Notes under the pieces: generated by a model | Databases searched by the model: none | What the model was told of the DNA's origin: nothing | Seen by the model: the letters and a program-made list of their open reading frames with translations, nothing else | Program-made: the position numbers and the translations under genes | NCBI GenBank assembly: GCA_965223325.1 | Contig: CBDCWI010000001.1 | Location: 800,001 to 864,000 of the forward strand | From: Candidatus Multivoradales bacterium | GTDB taxonomy: Bacteria > Acidobacteriota > Thermoanaerobaculia > Multivoradales > Multivoraceae | Length of the DNA: 64,000 nt | Direction of reading: 5' to 3' | In this document: positions 3,187 to 25,591 of the stretch, in pieces | Position numbering within the stretch: position 1 is the first letter of the stretch | Layout: every line of letters starts with the position of its first letter

Positions 3187-4359
3187 ATGGCAAGGACTAG
3201 AAAGAAGAGGCGCGGTAGGAAGGTGGCCCAGAAAGCAAAGAAGAAGCCGACCGAGAAGAAGGTCGCGAAGAAGAAGGCCGCGAAGAAGAGGGCCACTAAG
3301 AAGGTGGCCAAGAAGAGCGCAGCCAAGAAACGGGCCGCAACCAGAAAGAGGAGCGCGGCCACGCAACCCAGGAGCAAGAAGGCCTCCGGGAGGCGAGTGG
3401 CTGCCAAGGGGGTAAAGGGAAGTAGAGGAACTCCGAAGCCCACCGCCGCCAGCAAGCGCGCCGAGGCGAAGAGCGCGCAGTCCAGCAAACAGAAGCTCAC
3501 CGAACATCGTGCCCGCAAGAGCGTCGACAGCACGCCTTCGAAGAAGCGGCACGCCGTCTGGGTCAAAAAGAAGACGCTCGCCTACGAGCAGGAGCTCCAT
3601 CGACTGCAGATCGAGCTCGCCAAGATGCAATCAGATGTCAGGCAAGACGGAAGGCGGATCGTCCTGGTCTTCGAGGGGCGCGACGCCGCCGGCAAGGGCG
3701 GCACCATCAAGCGCTTCAACGAGCACCTCAACCCGCGTGGCGCGCGGGTTGTGGCGCTCGAGAAGCCCAGCGACCGGGAAGTCACCCAGTGGTACTTCCA
3801 ACGCTACGTCGTACACCTTCCGGCGGCCGGGGAGATCGTCTTCTTCGACCGCAGTTGGTACAACCGGGCACTCGTTGAGCCGATCATGGGGTTTTGCACC
3901 GACGAAGAAAACAAGCGCTTCATCAAGGACGTGCCCCTGTTCGAGCAAATGCTGGTCAAAGACGGCATTCAGCTCTTCAAGTTCTACTTTTCGGTGTCGA
4001 AGAAGGAGCAGCGGCGGCGCTTCGACTCCCGCAAGACAGACCGTCTCAAGCACCACAAGATCTCGCCAGTCGACGAGCGCGCCCAGGAGCTCTGGGATCA
4101 CTACACCGTCAAGAAGTTCCAGATGCTGTCTGAGACCAACCGCACGATCGCCCCCTGGACGATCATCCGCTCCGACAACAAGAAGCTGGCGCGCCTCAAC
4201 TGCATCAAACACGTGCTCTCGCACGTCGAATACGAGGACAAGGCACCGAGGAAGGATCTCGATCCGGACCCGAAGATCGTCGTCTCTGGAATCGACGAGC
4301 TCAAGATGATGGAACAGAGTCTGATGACCCACGTGCCGGTGCGCGAACTCTCGACCTGA
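3187..4359 (+). CDS. ppk2: Polyphosphate kinase 2 with Lys/Ala/Arg-rich N-terminal extension
   Basis: EGRDAAGKGG, FDRSWYNR, IRSDNKKLARL; first ~120 aa are low-complexity and basic (KKVAKKKAAKKRATKK). Confidence 0.93.
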   Translation: MARTRKKRRGRKVAQKAKKKPTEKKVAKKKAAKKRATKKVAKKSAAKKRAATRKRSAATQPRSKKASGRRVAAKGVKGSRGTPKPTAASKRAEAKSAQSSKQKLTEHRARKSVDSTPSKKRHAVWVKKKTLAYEQELHRLQIELAKMQSDVRQDGRRIVLVFEGRDAAGKGGTIKRFNEHLNPRGARVVALEKPSDREVTQWYFQRYVVHLPAAGEIVFFDRSWYNRALVEPIMGFCTDEENKRFIKDVPLFEQMLVKDGIQLFKFYFSVSKKEQRRRFDSRKTDRLKHHKISPVDERAQELWDHYTVKKFQMLSETNRTIAPWTIIRSDNKKLARLNCIKHVLSHVEYEDKAPRKDLDPDPKIVVSGIDELKMMEQSLMTHVPVRELST

Positions 4360-19295: not shown

Positions 19296-19567
19296 GTGAG
19301 AGCCGCAAAAGAACTCCTGGGGCGAGCGCCCTGCACCTCTGACCGCAAACTTCGATGATCCGTCGCGCCCCTTGAATCGAGTCGAAACTCACCCCTTCGG
19401 CGGCTGCTGCTGGTAACCTCGACCACAACGATAAAGAGCCGCCTCGATGCGCCGGGTTGCAGCGTGTAGCGAACCAGCTACCGGTGCCGGGTGAGTGCGT
19501 GCCAGTGCTCGGGCCATCTGGGCCGCGAGACTGGCTGAGGGGCTAAAGCCACTTGGAGGACCAAACC

Positions 19568-19930
19568 ATGGGTGAAATTTTCGACAAAGCAAAAGAGAAG
19601 GTCGGCAACGTTGCAGACAAGGTCGGCGATGCCGCCGAAGCAGCGGTCGACAAAGTCGGTGACGTCGCCGAGGCTGCCATCGACAAGGCTGGTGACATCA
19701 CCGAAGCCGGCGTCGACACCGCCAAGAACGTCGCGGGCAAGGTCGGTGACGCCGCCGAAGGCGCCTGGGACAAAGCAACCGACGTGGCCGACGCCGCAGT
19801 CGACAAGGTAGAGAACATCGCCGAAGCCGCAGTCGACAAGGCCGATGACATCAAAGACGCAGCAGCCGACAAAGTGGCAGCCGCCGCTGAGAAGGTCCAG
19901 GACGTCGCCGAGGACGCCAAGGGCGACTAG
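19568..19930 (+). CDS. LEA/CsbD-like 11-mer repeat hydrophilic protein
   Basis: GGAGG RBS; 11-aa periodic repeats (VGDAAEAAVDK); acidic and Ala-rich. Confidence 0.7.
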   Translation: MGEIFDKAKEKVGNVADKVGDAAEAAVDKVGDVAEAAIDKAGDITEAGVDTAKNVAGKVGDAAEGAWDKATDVADAAVDKVENIAEAAVDKADDIKDAAADKVAAAAEKVQDVAEDAKGD

Positions 19931-21001
19931 GTTGCGATGGTCGTGGTTGCGGCCTGCGGGTCGCGCTCCATCGTTTCTTGAGACCTTGGGGTTGGGGTTG
20001 CGATCGTGGCTTCGTCAGAATGGCGTTACCACGACCATCGCAACCGATCACTCTTGCGGGGCAAGCGGTCCGCCCGGCGGGCCGTCTTCCATGGCGGCCG
20101 CCTTGCAGTTGCGGCATAGGACTGCAAAGTTCCGGCGCGCCCCGCGGATTCGTGCCTCCGATGGAACGATGATCGTGAATGTTGCGGCCTGCGGGTCGCG
20201 CTCCATCGTTTCTTGAGACCTTGGGGTTGGGGTTGCGATCGTGGCTTCGTCAGAATGGCGTTACCACGACCATCGCAACCGATCACATTTGCGGGGCAAG
20301 CGGTCCGCCCGGCGGGCCGTCTTCCATGGCGGCCGCCTTGCAGTTGCGGCATAGGACTGCAAAGTTCCGGCGCGCCCCGCGGATTCGTGCCTCCGATGGA
20401 ACGATGATCGTGAATGCTGCGGCCTGCGGGTCGCGCTCCATCATTTCTTGAGACCTTGGGGTTGGGGTTGCGATCGTGGCTTCGTCAGAATGGCGTTACC
20501 ACGACCATCGCAACCGATCACTCTTGCGGGGCAAGCGGTCCGCCCGGCGGGCCGTCTTCCATGGCGGCCGCCTTGCAGTTGCGGCATAGGACTGCAAAGG
20601 GCCGGCGCGCCCCGCGGATTCGTGCCTCCGATGGAACGATGATCGTGAATGCTGCGGCCTGCGGGTCGCGCTCCATCGTTTCTTGAGACCTTGGGGTTGG
20701 GGTTGCGATCGTGGCTTCGTCAGAATGGCGTTACCACGACCATCGCAACCGATCACATTTGCGGGGCAAGCGGTCCGCCCGGCGGGCCGTCTTCCATGGC
20801 GGCCGCCTTGCAGTTGCGGCATAGGACTGCAAAGTTCCGGCGCGCCCCGCGGATTCGTGCCTCCGATGGAACGATGATCGTGAATGCTGCGGCCTGCGGG
20901 TCGCGCTCCATCGTTTCTTGAGACCTTGGGGTTGGGGTTGCGATCGTGGCTTCGTCAGAATGGCGTTACCACGACCATCGCAACCGATCACTTTTGCCGC
21001 G
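19931..21001 (+). repeat. Tandem array A: 235-bp unit, 4 full copies plus first half of unit 5
   Basis: GCGGCCTGCGGGTCGCGCTCCA recurs at 19949, 20184, 20419, 20654 and 20889 (period 235); copies are nearly identical. Confidence 0.97.
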
Positions 21002-22911
21002 ATCGCGGTAGGAGCGCCGGTTGCCCGGCGCCCCCCGCACAGATCCCAGCGTGCACTGCTAATGCACTGGGCTCCTGCCTCAGGTATTGACGACAAGTCG
21101 CTCATCAGGCCAGGGATGTTGGACTCGGGCTTTGGGTAGGTAGTGGGCCACCAGGGCCCACATCCGTTTCCAGGACGTGCGGTCTTTGTCACTGCGTCGG
21201 CGCAGAGCGCGCATCCAGTGCCGAATGACCTCCTGTCGAAAGGCGTTCAACGCCGCTGAGTTGCCGGGTACGCCGTAGTAGGCATTGAAGCCTCGCACCA
21301 CGGATCCCAGCCAGAGACCTTGCTCTGGTAGCGGCGAGTGTCGGTGTCCCAGAAGGGCCGTACCGACAGCCTTCAGTGTCCTGCGGATTCGGTGGCGGCT
21401 CGTGATGCGCTTCAGCAAGAACCTCCCTCGACTAGACTGCGCACAGCAGTGCGTAAAGCCTAGAAACTCGAAGGTCTCCGGCCGCCCGAGACCTCGCGCG
21501 CGTCGGTTGTAGGCCGCAAAGCGGCCAAACTCCAGCAGGCGCGTCTTCTCGGGTTGGATCTCCAACGAGAAGTCACGGAGTCGCAGGTTCAGTTCCTCGA
21601 GGAATCGTTCTGCCTCCTCCTGCCTCTCAAATCCAACGATGAAGTCATCCGCGTAGCGCACGAAGATCATGTCCCCAAGCGCGTTGCGTTTCCTCCACTG
21701 CTGGACCCAGAGATCGAGCACGTAGTGCAGGTACACGTTCCCGAGGAGAGGCGAAATCGTCGCCCCCTGAGGAGTCCCCCGCGTGCTCGCGTGCCACTTA
21801 CCGTCTTCCATCACTCCGGACCTCAGCCATTTCTGGATGAGGCGAAGGATCCTACGGTCTCCGATACGGTGCTCGAGAAACTTCACCAGCCACTCGTGGT
21901 CCAGGGCATCGAAGAACCCACGAATGTCTGCGTCGAGCACCCAGTTCACCTTCCGCTTTGTGATTCCAACGAATAGCGCATCCAAAGCATCGTGCTGGCT
22001 GCGGCCTCGCCTGAATCCGTATGAGTACCCGAGAAAGTCTTCCTCGTAGATCGCATCCAACACCGAGACGACGGCGCGCTGAAGGATCTTGTCCTCCAAC
22101 GTGGCGATGCCAAGCGGTCGGAACCGCCCATCCGATTTCTCGATGTAGACGCGACGAGTCGCACTCGCCCGGTAGCTCCCACGGTGGACACGAGAGTGCA
22201 GGTCCTCGAGATTGCTCAGCAAAGATTCTGCGTACTCGCTCCATGACACTCCGTCCACTCCTGCCGCTGCGTCTCGGTGCAACACGTCAAATGCGCTCCG
22301 GAGTCGCTCGACCGTGATGTGGTGAAGAAGCGCTGTGAACTTCACTTCCTTGCCCCTGCGGGCGGCTTCTCGTACACGGCCCAGCGCATTGCTCGCACTC
22401 TCCATCCGGCTCTGTGTCCGGGGTGCGTTTTGCTTGCCCGTGTTCCCCTTGGCCAGGCCCCTTCCCTCCACCGCCTCCGCCGCTGGTCTCCCACCGTTGT
22501 TCGACGACTTCGCAGGTACTACGGGCCTGTCTGACTTCCGCCATCCGTGCGTCATCGGCTTACGGCCTCTAGCCTTCCCGATGCGGACCAGATACCCAAC
22601 TGGCCAGATCGCGGATCTCCCGGTTCTCGCGCATGGAGATTCCACACATGCACAGGGTCTACGACCGCGGGGAGTCGCCGCAGAGCTCGCGATAGCGCGC
22701 TACGGAGTCTCGCCTTCCGCTTCGCTTGACAGCGTCGGCACTCCCAAATTCTTATTTCGCGGCTCAATACCCGGCCTGTGTGTGCCCCTGTCAACGCTTC
22801 ACCGCACCCTCGCGGGAGCCGGCGCATGACTCGGGGACCCTCTGGGTCGCTACCCCTTCGAGGGTGGGACTCTCTCATTCCTTTCTCCATGCCGGTTTAT
22901 CCCGGCGTATC
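21002..22911 (-). mobile_element. Group II intron (bacterial IIB-type, class E-like), apparently full length
   Basis: Minus strand: 5' end (G)ATACGCCGGGATAAACCGGC; domain V GAGCCCAGTGCATTAGCAGTGCACGCTGGGATC; domain VI hairpin with bulged A, ending ...CTACCGCGAT. Removing it restores an intact 235-bp unit. The 5' boundary is 22910 or 22911; the class assignment is from memory. Confidence 0.92.
21080..22555 (-). CDS. ltrA: Group II intron reverse transcriptase/maturase (no HNH endonuclease domain)
   Basis: AAGVDG, RPLGI, SYGFRRGR, DADIRGFFD, GTPQGATISPLL, YADD, FEFLGF, domain X (RGFNAYY); stop immediately before domain V. Confidence 0.95.
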   Translation of the reverse strand: MTHGWRKSDRPVVPAKSSNNGGRPAAEAVEGRGLAKGNTGKQNAPRTQSRMESASNALGRVREAARRGKEVKFTALLHHITVERLRSAFDVLHRDAAAGVDGVSWSEYAESLLSNLEDLHSRVHRGSYRASATRRVYIEKSDGRFRPLGIATLEDKILQRAVVSVLDAIYEEDFLGYSYGFRRGRSQHDALDALFVGITKRKVNWVLDADIRGFFDALDHEWLVKFLEHRIGDRRILRLIQKWLRSGVMEDGKWHASTRGTPQGATISPLLGNVYLHYVLDLWVQQWRKRNALGDMIFVRYADDFIVGFERQEEAERFLEELNLRLRDFSLEIQPEKTRLLEFGRFAAYNRRARGLGRPETFEFLGFTHCCAQSSRGRFLLKRITSRHRIRRTLKAVGTALLGHRHSPLPEQGLWLGSVVRGFNAYYGVPGNSAALNAFRQEVIRHWMRALRRRSDKDRTSWKRMWALVAHYLPKARVQHPWPDERLVVNT

Positions 22912-23066
22912 CAAGCGGTCCGCCCGGCGGGCCGTCTTCCATGGCGGCCGCCTTGCAGTTGCGGCATAGGACTGCAAAGTTCCGGCGCGCCCCGCGGATT
23001 CGTGCCTCCGATGGAACGATGATCGTGAATGGTGCGGCCTGCGGGTCGCGCTTCAACATTTGGTAG
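22912..23066 (+). repeat. Second half of array A unit 5 plus a partial sixth unit
   Basis: CAAGCGGTCCGCCCGGCGGGCCGTCTTCC... resumes exactly where the unit was interrupted at 21001. Confidence 0.95.
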
Positions 23067-23250
23067 CGTTCACGGTTGGCACCCTACCGAAGCCAGGTCG
23101 AAACCCCTCAACCCGACGTCAGTACCAAACCCGAGAGTGGCAACCCAGAGGCCAATCGATAGACGGCTTCAGAACTCCACTCCAACACGTCCTACCAAAC
23201 GCTGGAGCGCGACCCGGCCGATCCGCCGATCTGAAGAAGAGCGCTCCATC

Positions 23251-24175
23251 GAGGCACGAATCCGCGGGGCGCGCCGGAACTAGGCAGTCCAAAACCGCAA
23301 CTGCAGGGCGGCCGCCATGGAACACGGCACGCGCTACGGACCGCTTGCCCCGCAAAGGTGACCAGTAGCGATGGTCGTGGTAACGACCCGACGCCGAAGC
23401 CACATCGCAACCCCAACTCCAACGTCCTACCAAACGTTGAAGCGCGACCCACAAGCCGCTACCACGATCATCGCTACATCGGAGGCACGAATCCGCGGGG
23501 CGCGACGGAACTAGGCAGTCCAAAACCGCAACTGCAGGGCGGCCGCCATGGAACACGGCACGCGCTACGAACCGCTTGCCCCGCAAAGGTGACCAGTAGC
23601 GATGGTCGTGGTAACGACCCGACGCCGAAGCCACATCGCAACCCCAACTCCAACGTCCTACCAAACGTTGAAGCGCGACCCACAAGCCGCTACCACGGTC
23701 ATCGCTACATCGGAGGCACGAATCCGCGGGGCGCGACGGAACTAGGCAGTCCAAAACCGCAACTGCAGGGCGGCCGCCATGGAACACGGCACGCGCTACG
23801 GACCGCTTGCCCCGCAAAGGTGACCAGTAGCGATGGTCGTGGTAACGACCCGACGCCGAAGCCACATCGCAACCCCAACTCCAACGTCCTACCAAACGTT
23901 GAAGCGCGACCCACAGGCCGCTACCATGGTCATCGCTACATCGGAGGCACGAATCCGCGGGGCGCGACGGAACTAGGCAGTCCAAAACCGCAACTGCAGG
24001 GCGGCCGCCATGGAACACGGCACGCGCTACGGACCGCTTGCCCCGCAAAGGTGACCAGTAGCGATGGTCGTGGTAACGACCCGACGCCGAAGCCACATCG
24101 CAACCCCAACTCCAACGTCCTACCAAACGTTGAAGCGCGACCCACAGGCCGCAACAACCACGACCATCGCTACAC
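23251..24175 (-). repeat. Tandem array B: four 231-bp units, an inverted and diverged homolog of array A
   Basis: GAGGCACGAATCCGCGGGGCGCG at 23251, 23482, 23713 and 23944; it is the reverse complement of array A's CGCGCCCCGCGGATTCGTGCCTC. Confidence 0.97.
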
Positions 24176-25591
24176 CGGCCAGTCAGGGTGCCAGGGCTTG
24201 CTGCGCTCGAAAGCCATCGATGCCTGCAGCACCAGATCCTCGCGATGCCGTGGCCCGACGATCTGCAAACCAACCGGCAGACCCACATCCGAGAGTCCTG
24301 CCCGCACCGAGGCCGCCGGGTGCCACGAGAGGTTGAACGGGATCGTGAACACCGCGACTCCGGCTGGAGGTTGCACGCGACCCTCGGTCTCCTTCGGAAA
24401 CGGTCCGCCGGCGGGCGGCGGATCGTACGGCACCGTTGGCGTGAGCAAGAGATCGAAGCGCTCGAAGACCTCGGCTGTCCATTCGACGACTCGAGCGCGC
24501 GCGCGGGCAGCGGCACCCCAGCGCTCGGGCGTCATATCCCAGGCGGTCTTCAGACCGCGGGCAAACGCCCGGGTAATGTCGTCGGGCCGCTCTTCGAGCG
24601 CCTCGTGAAGCTGCGCGGCGATCTCGAAGTTGCCCAGCGATCCCCAGGCCTCGCCCAGCGCGGGCGGACCGCCTTCGATTCTTTTGACGTCGTGACCAAG
24701 AGCCTCGAAGGCACCAACCGCCTCTTCGACGACCCGCGCCACGTCACTCTGCACTACGCCCACGCCGAGGTCGGGCGCGAAGGCGATGTGCAACCGGCGG
24801 TCGAACGGTTGGCGGACCAGGTCGAGGTAAGAAAACTCGGGGTGTGGCAGTGAGGCAGGATCACCGAGCGACGTCCCCACAACCTGGTCGAGCACCAGCG
24901 CCGCATCTTCCACCGTGCGGGTCAACGGGCCGTAGACCGCAGTCGCCCCGTAGTCCCAGGCGGAAAGTGGATCACGCGGCACGCGACCGTACGACGGCTT
25001 GAGGCCGTAGGCGCCGGTGAAGCTCGCCGGAATGCGAATGGAGCCGCCGCCGTCGCTTGCGGTCACCAGGGGAATGACTCCGCCGGCGAGAACCGCTGCC
25101 GAGCCACCCGAAGAACCACCGGGGGTGCGCTCCGGGTCCCAGGGAGAAGACGTCGTTCCGAACGGCAGGTTCTTGCTGATGGCCGTGAAGCCGAACTCAG
25201 GCGTATTGGTCTTCGCCACCACGATCGCGCCCGCCGCTTTCAGGCGCGCCACCTGCGTCGAGTCGCGCTCGGCCACCTTGCCCTCGAAGAGTTTCGAGCC
25301 CATCGAAGTCGGCATCTCCCGAACATCCTCGAGATCCTTGACCCCGAGCGGGATACCCTCGAGCGCACCACCCTCACCGCGGGCAATGCGCTCCTCGCTG
25401 CGACGAGCATCGAGCATGCACAGCTCCGGATCGCGGCCGACCGTCACGGCGTTCAAGGTGCCCCGGGTCGCCTCGATGCGCGCCAGCACCACTTCCATGA
25501 GCTCGACCGGCGACAGGTCCTTGCGATGGATCCGCTGGGTCAGCTCAACCAGGCTCAGTGTAAAGACTTCGTGCACAGCGCTCCCTCCCAT
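24170..25591 (-). CDS. Amidase signature family protein
   Basis: GVKDL, KTNTPEFG, PGGSSGGS, SDGGGSIRIPAS (Ser-cisSer-Lys triad). Alternative start GTG 25576. Confidence 0.93.
   Translation of the reverse strand: MGGSAVHEVFTLSLVELTQRIHRKDLSPVELMEVVLARIEATRGTLNAVTVGRDPELCMLDARRSEERIARGEGGALEGIPLGVKDLEDVREMPTSMGSKLFEGKVAERDSTQVARLKAAGAIVVAKTNTPEFGFTAISKNLPFGTTSSPWDPERTPGGSSGGSAAVLAGGVIPLVTASDGGGSIRIPASFTGAYGLKPSYGRVPRDPLSAWDYGATAVYGPLTRTVEDAALVLDQVVGTSLGDPASLPHPEFSYLDLVRQPFDRRLHIAFAPDLGVGVVQSDVARVVEEAVGAFEALGHDVKRIEGGPPALGEAWGSLGNFEIAAQLHEALEERPDDITRAFARGLKTAWDMTPERWGAAARARARVVEWTAEVFERFDLLLTPTVPYDPPPAGGPFPKETEGRVQPPAGVAVFTIPFNLSWHPAASVRAGLSDVGLPVGLQIVGPRHREDLVLQASMAFERSKPWHPDWPV

What the first reader, a model, noticed from the sequence alone, without database searches (positions are those of the whole stretch)
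21002..22917. Group II intron whose EBS1 matches the repeat unit: 1 occupied and 8 vacant target sites in the same locus
Seen: excising 21002-22911 restores unit 5. The 5' exon ends in CGCTTG (minus strand, 22917-22912). The domain I hairpin GCCGACGCTGT-CAAGCG-AAGCGGAAGGC exposes the exact complement CAAGCG (22728-22723). The same hexamer lies in every other unit (20062, 20297, 20532, 20767; 23342, 23573, 23804, 24035), at the base of a conserved hairpin. Established: EBS1-IBS1 pairing sets homing specificity, and En-minus introns use exposed ssDNA. I found no obvious EBS2. Inference: the intron uses a multi-copy structured repeat as a safe harbour, possibly recognising hairpin plus EBS1.
Basis: partly seen in the sequence, partly recalled or inferred. 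Interest (0 to 1): 0.75.

Follow-up and report, generated by a model that had tools for sequence, protein, structure and literature searches.

The report
Mobile intron homing into genome repeats
A self-splicing mobile intron, present in 14 near-identical copies, inserts almost only at one spot of a roughly 250-base folded repeat that is scattered through this bacterium's genome; this is a clear natural case of a 'safe harbour' strategy, not a new kind of element.

Summary
Window 22911..21002 (minus strand) is a complete 1910-nt group II intron (Rfam RF02005, 180.6 bits). It encodes a reverse transcriptase/maturase with no endonuclease domain. The hexamer CAAGCG (22728-22723) sits in a domain I terminal loop and complements the 5' exon end CGCTTG. 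This is EBS1: in homologous introns from other phyla the same loop changes together with their 5' exons.

The genome holds 14 full copies. All 14 follow CGCTTG and precede C. Thirteen sit at the same position of a dispersed repeat family (about 170-180 units at 58 loci, mostly tandem arrays); one sits in a GNAT gene. CGCTTGC occurs about 1,800 times in the genome, so EBS1 plus the +1 base cannot explain this preference.

The repeat has two covarying helices, and the insertion point lies inside one of them, not beside an exposed hairpin. The intron does not look like class IIC, because EBS1 is 6 nt. I found no EBS2. The eight vacant sites in the window differ from all occupied sites at +2.

The intron is a new member of a known kind: En-minus homing into a multicopy target. 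The repeat family, which abuts the TAG stop codons of convergent genes, is the less expected part.

The parts
21002..22911 (-). Complete group II intron, 1910 nt, one of 14 full copies in the genome
   Evidence: Rfam D1 match. 14 matches over 1-1910 listed at 100% identity, 12 at 3445 and 2 at 3441 bits. Flanks diverge exactly at these ends.
22912..22917 (-). IBS1 (CGCUUG), last six bases of the 5' exon
   Evidence: Present at 14 of 14 copies. Complementary to the EBS1 loop.
22723..22728 (-). EBS1 (CAAGCG) in the terminal loop of a domain I hairpin
   Evidence: Rfam alignment. Loop and exon covary in homologs.
22655..22873 (-). Domain I core matched by RF02005
   Evidence: 180.6 bits, model 1-225 of 225.
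21080..22555 (-). Intron-encoded reverse transcriptase/maturase, up to 491 aa, start codon not settled, no endonuclease domain
   Evidence: TIGR04416 at 342.6 bits against a cut-off of 300. RVT_1 was the only Pfam hit. YADD is seen in the ORF translation.
21041..21074 (-). Domain V (about 34 nt) with an AGC triad, a 2-nt bulge, and a loop that is not a GNRA tetraloop
   Evidence: MFE fold, z = -3.5. RF00029 found no match at E<=1.
21005..21038 (-). Domain VI: 14-bp helix, GCAA loop, bulged UA with the candidate branch A at 21009, 7 nt before the 3' end
   Evidence: MFE fold.
20992..21001 (-). First 10 bases of the 3' exon. They differ from the neighbouring units at +2, +4 and +9/+10 and are identical to the 3' exon of copy C2:2708381.
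   Evidence: The tract breaks two pairs of helix H2 in this unit (columns).
22912..23044 (-). 5' part of the occupied repeat unit (unit 5 of array A)
   Evidence: nhmmer match to model positions 1-108.
19913..20876 (-). Array A: four vacant units (period 235), each with CGCTTG|C. The last unit ends in a CTAG that holds the stop codon of gene 19553..19930.
   Evidence: (CM hits at C1:819913-820876).
23239..24191 (+). Array B: four vacant units (period 231), inverted relative to A. It ends at the stop codon of the amidase gene.
   Evidence: (CM hits at C1:823239-824191).
19553..19930 (+). Small protein gene with 11-residue repeats. Its TAG stop lies in the terminal CTAG of array A.
   Evidence: ORF list. 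Only sub-threshold Pfam hits.
24170..25591 (-). Amidase gene. Its TAG stop abuts the last unit of array B.
   Evidence: PF01425 at 319.5 bits..

Best explanation
This is an active, endonuclease-less (En-minus), IIB-like bacterial group II intron. Its homing site is the most conserved block of a multicopy, non-coding, structured repeat. The spliced intron RNA, bound to its RT/maturase, reverse-splices into the repeat strand that reads ...GGACCGCTTG|CGCC. The 6-nt EBS1 loop CAAGCG pairs with CGCTTG, and a G (EBS3, not located) probably pairs with the C at +1. A cDNA is then made from a host-supplied primer, since the protein has no nuclease. That last step is inferred from what is known of En-minus introns. 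The repeat offers about 115 further CGCTTG|C sites in harmless intergenic DNA, so the intron can multiply without breaking genes. Some further determinant must add specificity, because the 7-nt match alone does not explain the preference. It could be extended sequence read by the protein, the folded state of the repeat, or fork stalling in the arrays. Which one it is remains unknown.
For: Intron identity: RF02005 at 180.6 bits; TIGR04416 at 342.6 bits with no En domain; well-formed D5 and D6 with a bulged A. Activity: 14 full copies listed at 100% identity, plus a 5'-truncated 237-nt copy. EBS1: 14 of 14 copies follow CGCTTG and precede C. In 13 homologous introns of four EBS1 types the loop is complementary to the intron's own 5' exon, including a compensatory G-to-C/C-to-G change in L035. 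Their +1 base is C in 12 of 13 and T in 1. Repeat as home: 13 of 14 copies lie at model position 108|109 of a family with 183 nhmmer hits at 58 loci. The fourteenth shares only GAGCGCTTG|C and sits, in sense, in a GNAT gene. Preference beyond the 7-mer: after removing the introns, CGCTTGC occurs 128 times in repeats (sense strand) and 1683 times elsewhere. With a crude coding mask and both strands counted, this splits into 135 in or near repeats, 306 other non-coding and 1370 coding. The chance that all 13 non-coding insertions fall in repeats is then about 2e-7. The repeat is structured: 24 pairs, 15 with compensatory changes, 97.9% of cells paired against 81.6% in shuffles (0 of 500 as high), and at most 48% when the pairs are slid. 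A related lineage uses another multicopy target, a DDE transposase gene.
Against: No RNA data exist for this organism in the runs offered, so splicing and transcription of the repeat strand are not shown. No mobility event was observed directly. I found no EBS2, although IIB-like introns usually have one. There is no replication-strand bias: 8 copies co-oriented with the fork and 6 opposed; arrays 29 and 31. In the folded repeat, 4 of 6 IBS1 bases and +1 are base-paired, which should hinder rather than help EBS1 pairing. The coding mask behind the 2e-7 figure is my own crude ORF/GC3 call, and selection against other non-coding sites is not modelled. Only about 10% of matching repeat sites are occupied, with never two in one array.
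Confidence: 0.8

Rival explanations
1. Targeting resembles class IIC. The intron recognises a DNA or RNA stem-loop of the repeat together with a short IBS1, as class C introns do at terminators and attC sites. The structure is then the main determinant.
For: No EBS2 was found. The ribozyme is compact: about 356 nt 5' and 78 nt 3' of the ORF. The nearest solved RTs are from IIC introns, although only by a small margin: 5hhl, 7uim and 5hhj at about 1e-41, 6ar1 at 1.6e-38, LtrA at 8e-38 and 6me0 (which I recall as TeI4h) at 5e-36. Preference for the repeat exceeds what the 7-nt match explains. The target lies in a covarying helix.
Against: EBS1-IBS1 is a full 6 bp, whereas IIC introns are described as lacking part of EBS1 (passage of PMC3753933). 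The site is inside the 3' strand of a helix, not in single-stranded sequence just 3' of a hairpin. No local hairpin directly upstream of IBS1 is conserved across the family. The ectopic copy and the homologs in transposase genes have no such structure. The D1 model matched is RF02005; from memory, not from a call, the O. iheyensis IIC intron belongs to another Rfam D1-D4 model.
Confidence: 0.12
2. The intron has no real preference for the repeat. It inserts at any CGCTTG|C, and only copies in harmless non-coding repeats survive. The 13:1 ratio is survivorship.
For: One copy does sit in a gene, with only the 7-nt match plus loose upstream similarity. About 76% of CGCTTGC sites are in crude coding calls, where antisense or unspliced insertions would be selected against.
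Against: 306 CGCTTGC sites lie in other non-coding DNA against 135 in or near repeats, yet 13 of 13 non-coding copies are in repeats. All copies are identical or nearly so, so there has been little time for purifying selection to sort them.
Confidence: 0.06
3. The intron spreads among repeat units at the DNA level, by gene conversion or recombination between homologous units. Alternatively it spreads by cDNA copied from unspliced transcripts and recombined through exon homology. Either way, reverse splicing is not the route.
For: The window copy carries 3' exon bases +1 to +10 identical to those of copy C2:2708381 and unlike its own four neighbours. This looks like co-conversion of donor exon sequence and breaks two pairs of helix H2. 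All targets are homologous to each other.
Against: Such a tract is seen in 1 array only, out of about 8 arrays that have comparable neighbours. Units of different loci are only about 70-75% identical, which is poor substrate for homologous recombination. The ectopic GNAT site has no homology beyond about 10 nt. Junctions are exact to the base in 14 of 14 copies, and EBS1 covaries with the target in homologs.
Confidence: 0.06

Closest known systems
RmInt1 of Sinorhizobium meliloti (class D, En-minus) homing into the insertion sequence ISRm2011-2
   Same: Both are En-minus RT/maturase introns present in many copies whose homing site lies in a multicopy genetic element, so spread does little harm to host genes. 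A homolog lineage of the present intron also sits in a transposase gene.
   Different: RmInt1 uses EBS1, EBS2 and EBS3 and shows a lagging-strand bias (recalled, and abstracts listed). Here I found no EBS2 and no strand bias. The target here is a non-coding structured repeat, not a gene.
Class C (IIC) introns such as B.h.I1 and S.ma.I2, which insert after intrinsic terminators or into attC sites
   Same: Both have intergenic, structured, multicopy targets near the ends of genes, no EBS2 and no En domain. The review passages read name these as the only non-homing specificities known.
   Different: IIC introns pair with only 3-4 nt (recalled) lying just 3' of the stem-loop. Here 6 nt are paired and the site lies inside a helix strand. 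The RNA matches another D1 model. The intron is antisense to the gene whose stop codon the repeat abuts.
Group IIE / IIF introns (Nagy et al. 2013, PMC3753933, passages read)
   Same: Both are small IIB-like ribozymes, 450-700 nt without the ORF, with an En-minus protein and a domain V loop that is not the usual 4-nt loop. An alpha'-like sequence may sit in the terminal loop of a D1d hairpin; that is my reading of the alignment and is not secure.
   Different: Those introns have a clear covarying EBS2-IBS2; none is seen here. I could not do a class assignment by protein phylogeny because no reference sequences were available.
Group II intron of Pseudomonas putida KT2440 associated with REP sequences (table in PMC1525189)
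   Same: A bacterial group II intron found next to or in an intergenic palindromic repeat family.
   Different: There only 2 of 9 copies are REP-associated. Here 13 of 14 are at one exact position of the repeat.
REP/BIME elements and mycobacterial MIRU minisatellites (recalled; a comparison for the repeat, not the intron)
   Same: Both are intergenic, structured, multicopy repeats placed directly after stop codons, often in tandem arrays with locus-specific copy number.
   Different: The unit here is about 250 nt, with two long covarying helices and a hypervariable stem. It is strand-specific, and the stop codon itself is part of the terminal helix.

Membership tests
Mobile bacterial group II intron | Domain I fold | tested here: met
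   RF02005 at 180.6 bits against a gathering score of 49, full model 1-225.
Mobile bacterial group II intron | Domain V with the catalytic AGC and a 2-nt bulge, and domain VI with a bulged A near the 3' end | tested here: met
   The MFE fold of 21084-21002 gives both. However, RF00029 finds no match at E<=1, so D5/D6 are atypical in sequence.
Mobile bacterial group II intron | Intron-encoded RT with maturase (X) region in domain IV | tested here: met
   TIGR04416 at 342.6 bits against a cut-off of 300, profile 6-352 of 353. Pfam's separate maturase model gave no hit; only RVT_1 hit.
Mobile bacterial group II intron | EBS1-IBS1 pairing that covaries with the target | tested here: met
   14 of 14 own copies, and 13 homologs of four EBS1 types.
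Mobile bacterial group II intron | Canonical 5' end GUGYG | tested here: not met
   The 5' end is GAUACG. Homologs have GUACG, GUAGCG and GAUGCG. This is a lineage variant and does not affect the other features.
Mobile bacterial group II intron | Splicing and retromobility in vivo | not testable with these tools
   No RNA run is listed and only contigs are available. Fourteen identical or near-identical copies are indirect evidence.
Class C (IIC) introns | Short (3-4 nt) IBS1, part of EBS1 missing | tested here: not met
   6-bp pairing in all copies and in homologs. The criterion comes from the PMC3753933 passage.
Class C (IIC) introns | Insertion just 3' of a terminator or attC stem-loop | tested here: not met
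   The site lies between two pairs of helix H2. There are no terminator-like sites in the units and no conserved upstream hairpin.
Class C (IIC) introns | No EBS2 | tested here: met
   I found none. The -7 to -14 bases vary among identical intron copies in one MAG.
Group IIE/IIF | Covarying EBS2-IBS2 | tested here: not met
   As in the row above.
Group IIE/IIF | Domain V loop of 5 nt, and alpha' in a terminal loop of D1d | tested here: inconclusive
   The D5 loop is predicted at 3-5 nt. The alpha-alpha' assignment was made by eye only.
En-minus introns primed at replication forks | No endonuclease domain | tested here: met
En-minus introns primed at replication forks | Orientation bias relative to replication | tested here: not met
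   8 copies co-oriented and 6 opposed, with ori and ter inferred from GC skew.

The most novel reading that the evidence does not exclude
The roughly 250-nt repeat may be an undescribed class of strand-specific structured element (RNA or single-stranded DNA). Its terminal helix incorporates the TAG stop codon of a convergent gene. It is conserved in shorter form in other genera of the family, and it carries a hypervariable but perfectly compensated stem. The intron would then be a specialised parasite of its most conserved helix. In that case the extra specificity would come from the folded or fork-stalling state of the arrays. The imported 3'-exon tract in the window copy would point to a homology-assisted retrohoming route in which donor exon sequence is copied together with the intron.
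Probability: 0.3. Interest if true: 0.75.

Novelty: new member of a known kind. Interest (0 to 1): 0.5.

Why it matters
Bacterial group II introns are said to use three target strategies: a 20-35 bp homing site, terminator motifs, and attC sites (review passage). This intron falls between them. It is a non-IIC intron with a full EBS1 and no visible EBS2, and it lives almost only in a non-coding structured repeat. It prefers that repeat well beyond what its 7-nt match explains.

With 14 identical or near-identical copies and about 115 vacant matching sites, the genome is a natural system for asking what else an En-minus intron reads in its target. Candidates are protein contacts, DNA structure and replication context.

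The repeat also deserves study in its own right. It is a covarying two-helix element at 58 loci that abuts TAG stop codons, often those of outer-membrane protein genes. Five full-text searches listed no paper describing such a repeat or this intron-repeat pairing, judging from the listings and the passages I read.

Tried and rejected
EBS2: I looked for complementarity between domain I and positions -7 to -16. UCCGU in a D1d stem could pair with ACGGA, but the equivalent segments of the homologs do not match their exons. Rejected.

RNA evidence: no RNA holder was listed. All four runs laid were contigs.

The 'skips 1914' joint in run X1, with CCCC between the sides, is a neighbouring vacant unit and not an empty allele. 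Its depth is 34, against 103 for the 14-copy intron.

Runs X5-X7 hold the intron at 99% or more, with flanks equal to other copies in this genome. This gives no independent information.

Co-conversion as a general feature: seen only in the window copy, 1 of about 8 arrays with comparable neighbours.

Replication-strand bias: none.

Promoters and terminators in the units: 0 promoter-like sites, and no terminator-like site inside a unit.

Rfam on the repeats: nothing at E<=1.

BLAST of one window unit found nothing in 40 relatives. An exact two-block pattern gave 69 matches in this genome and 0 in 400 other genomes of the phylum. Only the covariance model found the shorter relatives.

The boundaries of the intron in G005 (L015) could not be fixed, so it was left out of the EBS1 count. 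L014 (6 of 7 bases match, boundary uncertain by one base) and the ORF-less L016 were also left out.

Y1 transposases: there are 28 PF01797 matches in the genome, only one within 400 nt of an array. No link was shown.

Class assignment by phylogeny was not possible.

Selection note: the 22 units in alignment A1 comprise 20 fetched units plus the two window units. All were taken from the 51 locus representatives, and the 20 fetched units came from those with the best-formed helix H3. In the unselected set, 28 of 51 score 14 or more.
Full report
OBSERVATION. On the minus strand a 5' exon ends ...GGACCGCTTG at 22912. An insert begins GAUACGCCGGG at 22911 and ends ...CUACCGCGAU at 21002. Rfam's group-II-D1D4-6 model (RF02005) matches 22873-22655 over its full length at 180.6 bits. 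It places CAAGCG (22728-22723) in the 9-nt terminal loop of a hairpin near the end of domain I.

The insert carries an ORF of up to 491 aa. It passes NCBIfam's group II RT/maturase model (TIGR04416, 342.6 bits, cut-off 300) and shows only RVT_1 in Pfam, with no nuclease domain. The last 83 nt fold into a domain V with an AGC triad and a 2-nt bulge, and into a 14-bp domain VI with a bulged A seven bases from the end (z = -3.5). The generic D5/D6 model RF00029 does not match, and the 5' end is GAUACG rather than GUGYG.

The eight further CGCTTG hexamers are at the stated places. Four lie on the minus strand in a 235-bp array and four on the plus strand in an inverted 231-bp array.

COPIES AND FLANKS. 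The window lies in a 6.69-Mb genome held as two contigs. BLAST finds 14 full-length copies: 12 at 3445 bits and 2 at 3441, all listed as 100% identical over 1-1910. It also finds a 237-nt 3' fragment.

Thirteen of the 14 flanks belong to one repeat family, and the intron sits at the same position in all of them: model 108|109, consensus ...ACGGACCGCTTG|CGCCGCAAG. The fourteenth copy (C2:2349730) shares only GAGCGCTTG|C. It lies in the sense strand of a GNAT acetyltransferase gene, at a codon boundary.

EBS1 IS PROVEN BY COVARIATION. A search of one genome per species gave 15 loci with related proteins, most of them 59-62% identical, in gammaproteobacterial, Solirubrobacterales and Acidimicrobiales MAGs. 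Aligning the 5' regions shows the same hairpin with a different loop in each lineage, and each loop complements its own exon:
- TAAGCG with CGCTTA in seven copies from three genomes.
- TAACCG with CGGTTA in L035.
- TAAGCU with GGCTTA in L038.
- CCAGGU with ACTTGG or ATCTGG in three Solirubrobacterales copies.

The first 3' exon base is C in 12 of these 13 and T in one, as expected for a G at EBS3. I dropped L014 (boundary uncertain by one base), L016 (ORF-less) and L015 (boundaries not found) from this count.

The bases upstream of IBS1 vary among identical intron copies within one MAG. I found no domain I segment whose complementarity to them is kept across lineages, so I see no EBS2.

THE REPEAT. 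Iterated nhmmer finds 183 matches at 58 loci, or 174 once the introns are cut out. Most are tandem arrays of 2-7 units with locus-specific periods of 130-360 bp. Units are 97-100% alike within an array and about 70-75% alike between loci.

The full unit is about 250 nt. It has two helices.
- H2 pairs GCGGCGCGCG with CGC-TT-GCGCCGC across about 70 nt. GC/CG swaps occur at two positions (81:34 and 110:7 among unique units), and GC/TA swaps also occur.
- H3 is a 14-22 bp helix, CTAG-N8-CGTGGT ... ACCACG-N8'-CTAG, closing an 80-nt C/A-rich stretch. The N8 part is different at almost every locus yet complementary.

On an alignment of 22 units, RNAalifold predicts 24 pairs, 15 of them with compensatory changes. 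Of all cells, 97.9% are paired, against 81.6% in shuffles (0 of 500 as high) and at most 48% when partners are slid. The 20 fetched units were chosen for a good H3; in the unselected 51 locus representatives, 28 have a helix score of 14 or more.

Wobble pairs outnumber A-C mismatches about 12:2 in the alignment and about 15:3 in the script count. This points to the strand that carries CGCTTG, the intron's sense strand, as the one that folds.

The intron's insertion point lies between the first and second pair of the outer part of H2. Four of the six IBS1 bases and +1 are paired in the folded unit. For the family as a whole, however, the site is inside a long-range helix.

PREFERENCE. With the introns removed, CGCTTGC occurs 128 times in repeats in the right orientation and 1683 times elsewhere. 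Using a crude mask of GC3-supported ORFs and counting both strands, 1370 of the sites are coding, 306 are other non-coding and 135 are in or next to repeats. All 13 non-coding copies are in repeats, which has a probability of about 2e-7 if sites were equal.

The 10-mer GACCGCTTGC is found 91 times in repeats and 38 times elsewhere. Extended sequence could therefore be what is read. Structure or replication context could be too. I cannot tell which.

About 115 matching repeat sites are vacant, and no array has two copies.

The eight vacant sites of the window have C at +2. The occupied sites have G (12 of 14) or A (2 of 14), and the homologs have G at +2 in 9 of 13. The vacancy of these eight sites may therefore not be accidental.

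A DONOR TRACT. The occupied window unit differs from its four neighbours at +2, +4 and +9 or +10, and at only one distant position elsewhere. Those ten bases equal the 3' exon of copy C2:2708381. They break two H2 pairs, because the unit's 5' strand is of the GCGGGGC type. This looks like co-conversion of donor exon sequence. I saw it in this array only.

CONTEXT. GC skew indicates one chromosome, with the origin near C2:3.50 Mb and the terminus near C2:0.34 Mb. Intron copies are co-oriented with the fork in 8 cases and opposed in 6. Arrays split 29 and 31.

In the element's orientation, 57 of 60 strand-split arrays have a GC3-rich ORF on the opposite strand just downstream. In 46 of 60 its stop codon lies within 96 nt of the core's end, at the terminal CTA of H3. 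In 39 of those 46 the stop is TAG, against 38% TAG among 3075 crude ORFs. The window shows this rule twice: the small repeat protein gene ends in array A's last CTAG, and the amidase gene ends at array B's last unit.

The intron is therefore antisense to the gene that its array abuts. It can be transcribed only from the other side, where a co-oriented upstream gene exists at 26 of 60 arrays, or from an unknown promoter.

Fifteen of 45 abutting ORFs end in Phe and three in Trp. Of ten of these, five are outer-membrane beta-barrels: Omp85, an autotransporter, two TonB-dependent receptors and OMP_b-brl_4.

RELATIVES. A covariance model of the unit finds 81 scored matches in this genome. It finds none in the other genome of the genus, 35 in G005, 4 in G009, 3 in G004, and one or two weak matches in seven further genomes among the 24 relatives searched.

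The G005 elements are about 150 nt. They have a plain H2 hairpin that still contains GCTTGC, the same H3, and the same CTAG at the stop of a convergent ORF.

Related introns at 65-85% identity occur in 8 of 40 relatives, mostly as fragments. The same-genus genome has only decayed pieces, outside any such repeat.

COMPARISON WITH WHAT IS KNOWN. A review states that bacterial introns either home to 20-35 bp sites, insert after terminators, or insert into attC, the last two being class C only (passages).

This intron is not IIC by the tests I could run: 6-bp EBS1, a site inside a helix, and another D1 model. It shares with IIC the lack of EBS2 and the intergenic structured target. Its small size and odd domain V loop recall the IIE/IIF lineages (passages), but those have a covarying EBS2. 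I leave the class open.

The nearest lifestyle is RmInt1 in ISRm2011-2. The nearest precedent for a repeat target is the P. putida intron, where only 2 of 9 copies are REP-associated (table).

Five full-text searches listed nothing that describes this pairing or this repeat. I read listings and selected passages only, and supplements were closed.

VERDICT. It is unproven on hairpin recognition. It is probably too generous in calling the eight neighbouring sites equivalent targets. The intron is a new member of a known kind. The repeat family is the more novel object and deserves its own study.

Noticed in passing
whole genome G000; in the window 19913-20876 (-) and 23239-24191 (+): The repeat is a roughly 250-nt two-helix element found at 58 loci. 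Its terminal helix (CTAG-N8-CGTGGT...ACCACG-N8'-CTAG) has a locus-specific but complementary N8. Its last CTA is the stop codon of a convergent gene in 46 of 60 arrays, and the stop is TAG in 39 of those 46, against a 38% background.
   Followed up: yes
genes abutting the arrays, e.g. G000:C1:65456-66808, C2:4063896-4065248: 15 of 45 abutting ORFs end in Phe and 3 in Trp. Of 10 checked by Pfam, 5 are outer-membrane beta-barrel proteins: Omp85, an autotransporter, two TonB-dependent receptors and OMP_b-brl_4.
   Followed up: partly
window 20992-21001 (-): The first ten 3' exon bases of the occupied unit match another intron copy's exon (C2:2708381), not the neighbouring units. They break two pairs of helix H2. 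This is a possible donor-exon co-conversion tract, seen in this array only.
   Followed up: partly
G005 (35 CM matches; L082:1501-1629), G004, G009, G013: Other genera of the family hold shorter relatives of the repeat, about 150 nt, with a plain H2 hairpin containing GCTTGC and the same H3 at a stop codon. The other genome of the same genus has none.
   Followed up: partly
G000:C2:4455-4487 kb, C1:2126-2144 kb and elsewhere: There are 28 matches to the IS200-like Y1 transposase domain (PF01797) in open frames of about 175-410 aa, many in tight clusters. One (C1:1243225-1243485) lies about 340 nt from a repeat array. No link to the repeats was shown.
   Followed up: no
L016/L020 (G034:C5:2461187-2461620 approx.): An ORF-less relative of the intron, about 430 nt: the D1 model matches at 140.9 bits and a D5/D6-like 3' end follows about 170 nt later.
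   Followed up: no
L031, L034, L037 (Solirubrobacterales MAG): Three copies of a 59%-identical (protein) intron relative sit in the sense strand near the 5' end of a DDE transposase gene (DUF772 + DDE_Tnp_1 in L034). This is another multicopy target.
   Followed up: partly
G000:C2:4242250-4242488: A 5'-truncated intron copy (last 237 nt, 97% identical) is joined to a normal 3' half of a repeat unit, with unrelated AT-rich sequence upstream.
   Followed up: no
repeat loci such as G000:C2:3795038-3795726, C2:4065335, C2:85297, C2:510636, C2:4366989: A subfamily of units carries an extra C5-N3-4-G5 hairpin plus AGGGGGGAGA inserted right after CGCTTGCGCC, just 3' of the intron site. Two occupied units are of this type.
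   Followed up: no
G000:C2:700738-701480: One occupied array consists of four 130-bp units that hold only the 5' part of the element. Homology ends at ...ACTGCTT, within two bases of the intron insertion point. A full occupied unit follows.
   Followed up: no
contigs C1 and C2 of G000: Cumulative GC skew falls monotonically along the whole of C1. On C2 it has one minimum (about 3.50 Mb) and one maximum (about 0.34 Mb). The two contigs therefore look like one circular chromosome, not two replicons.
   Followed up: partly
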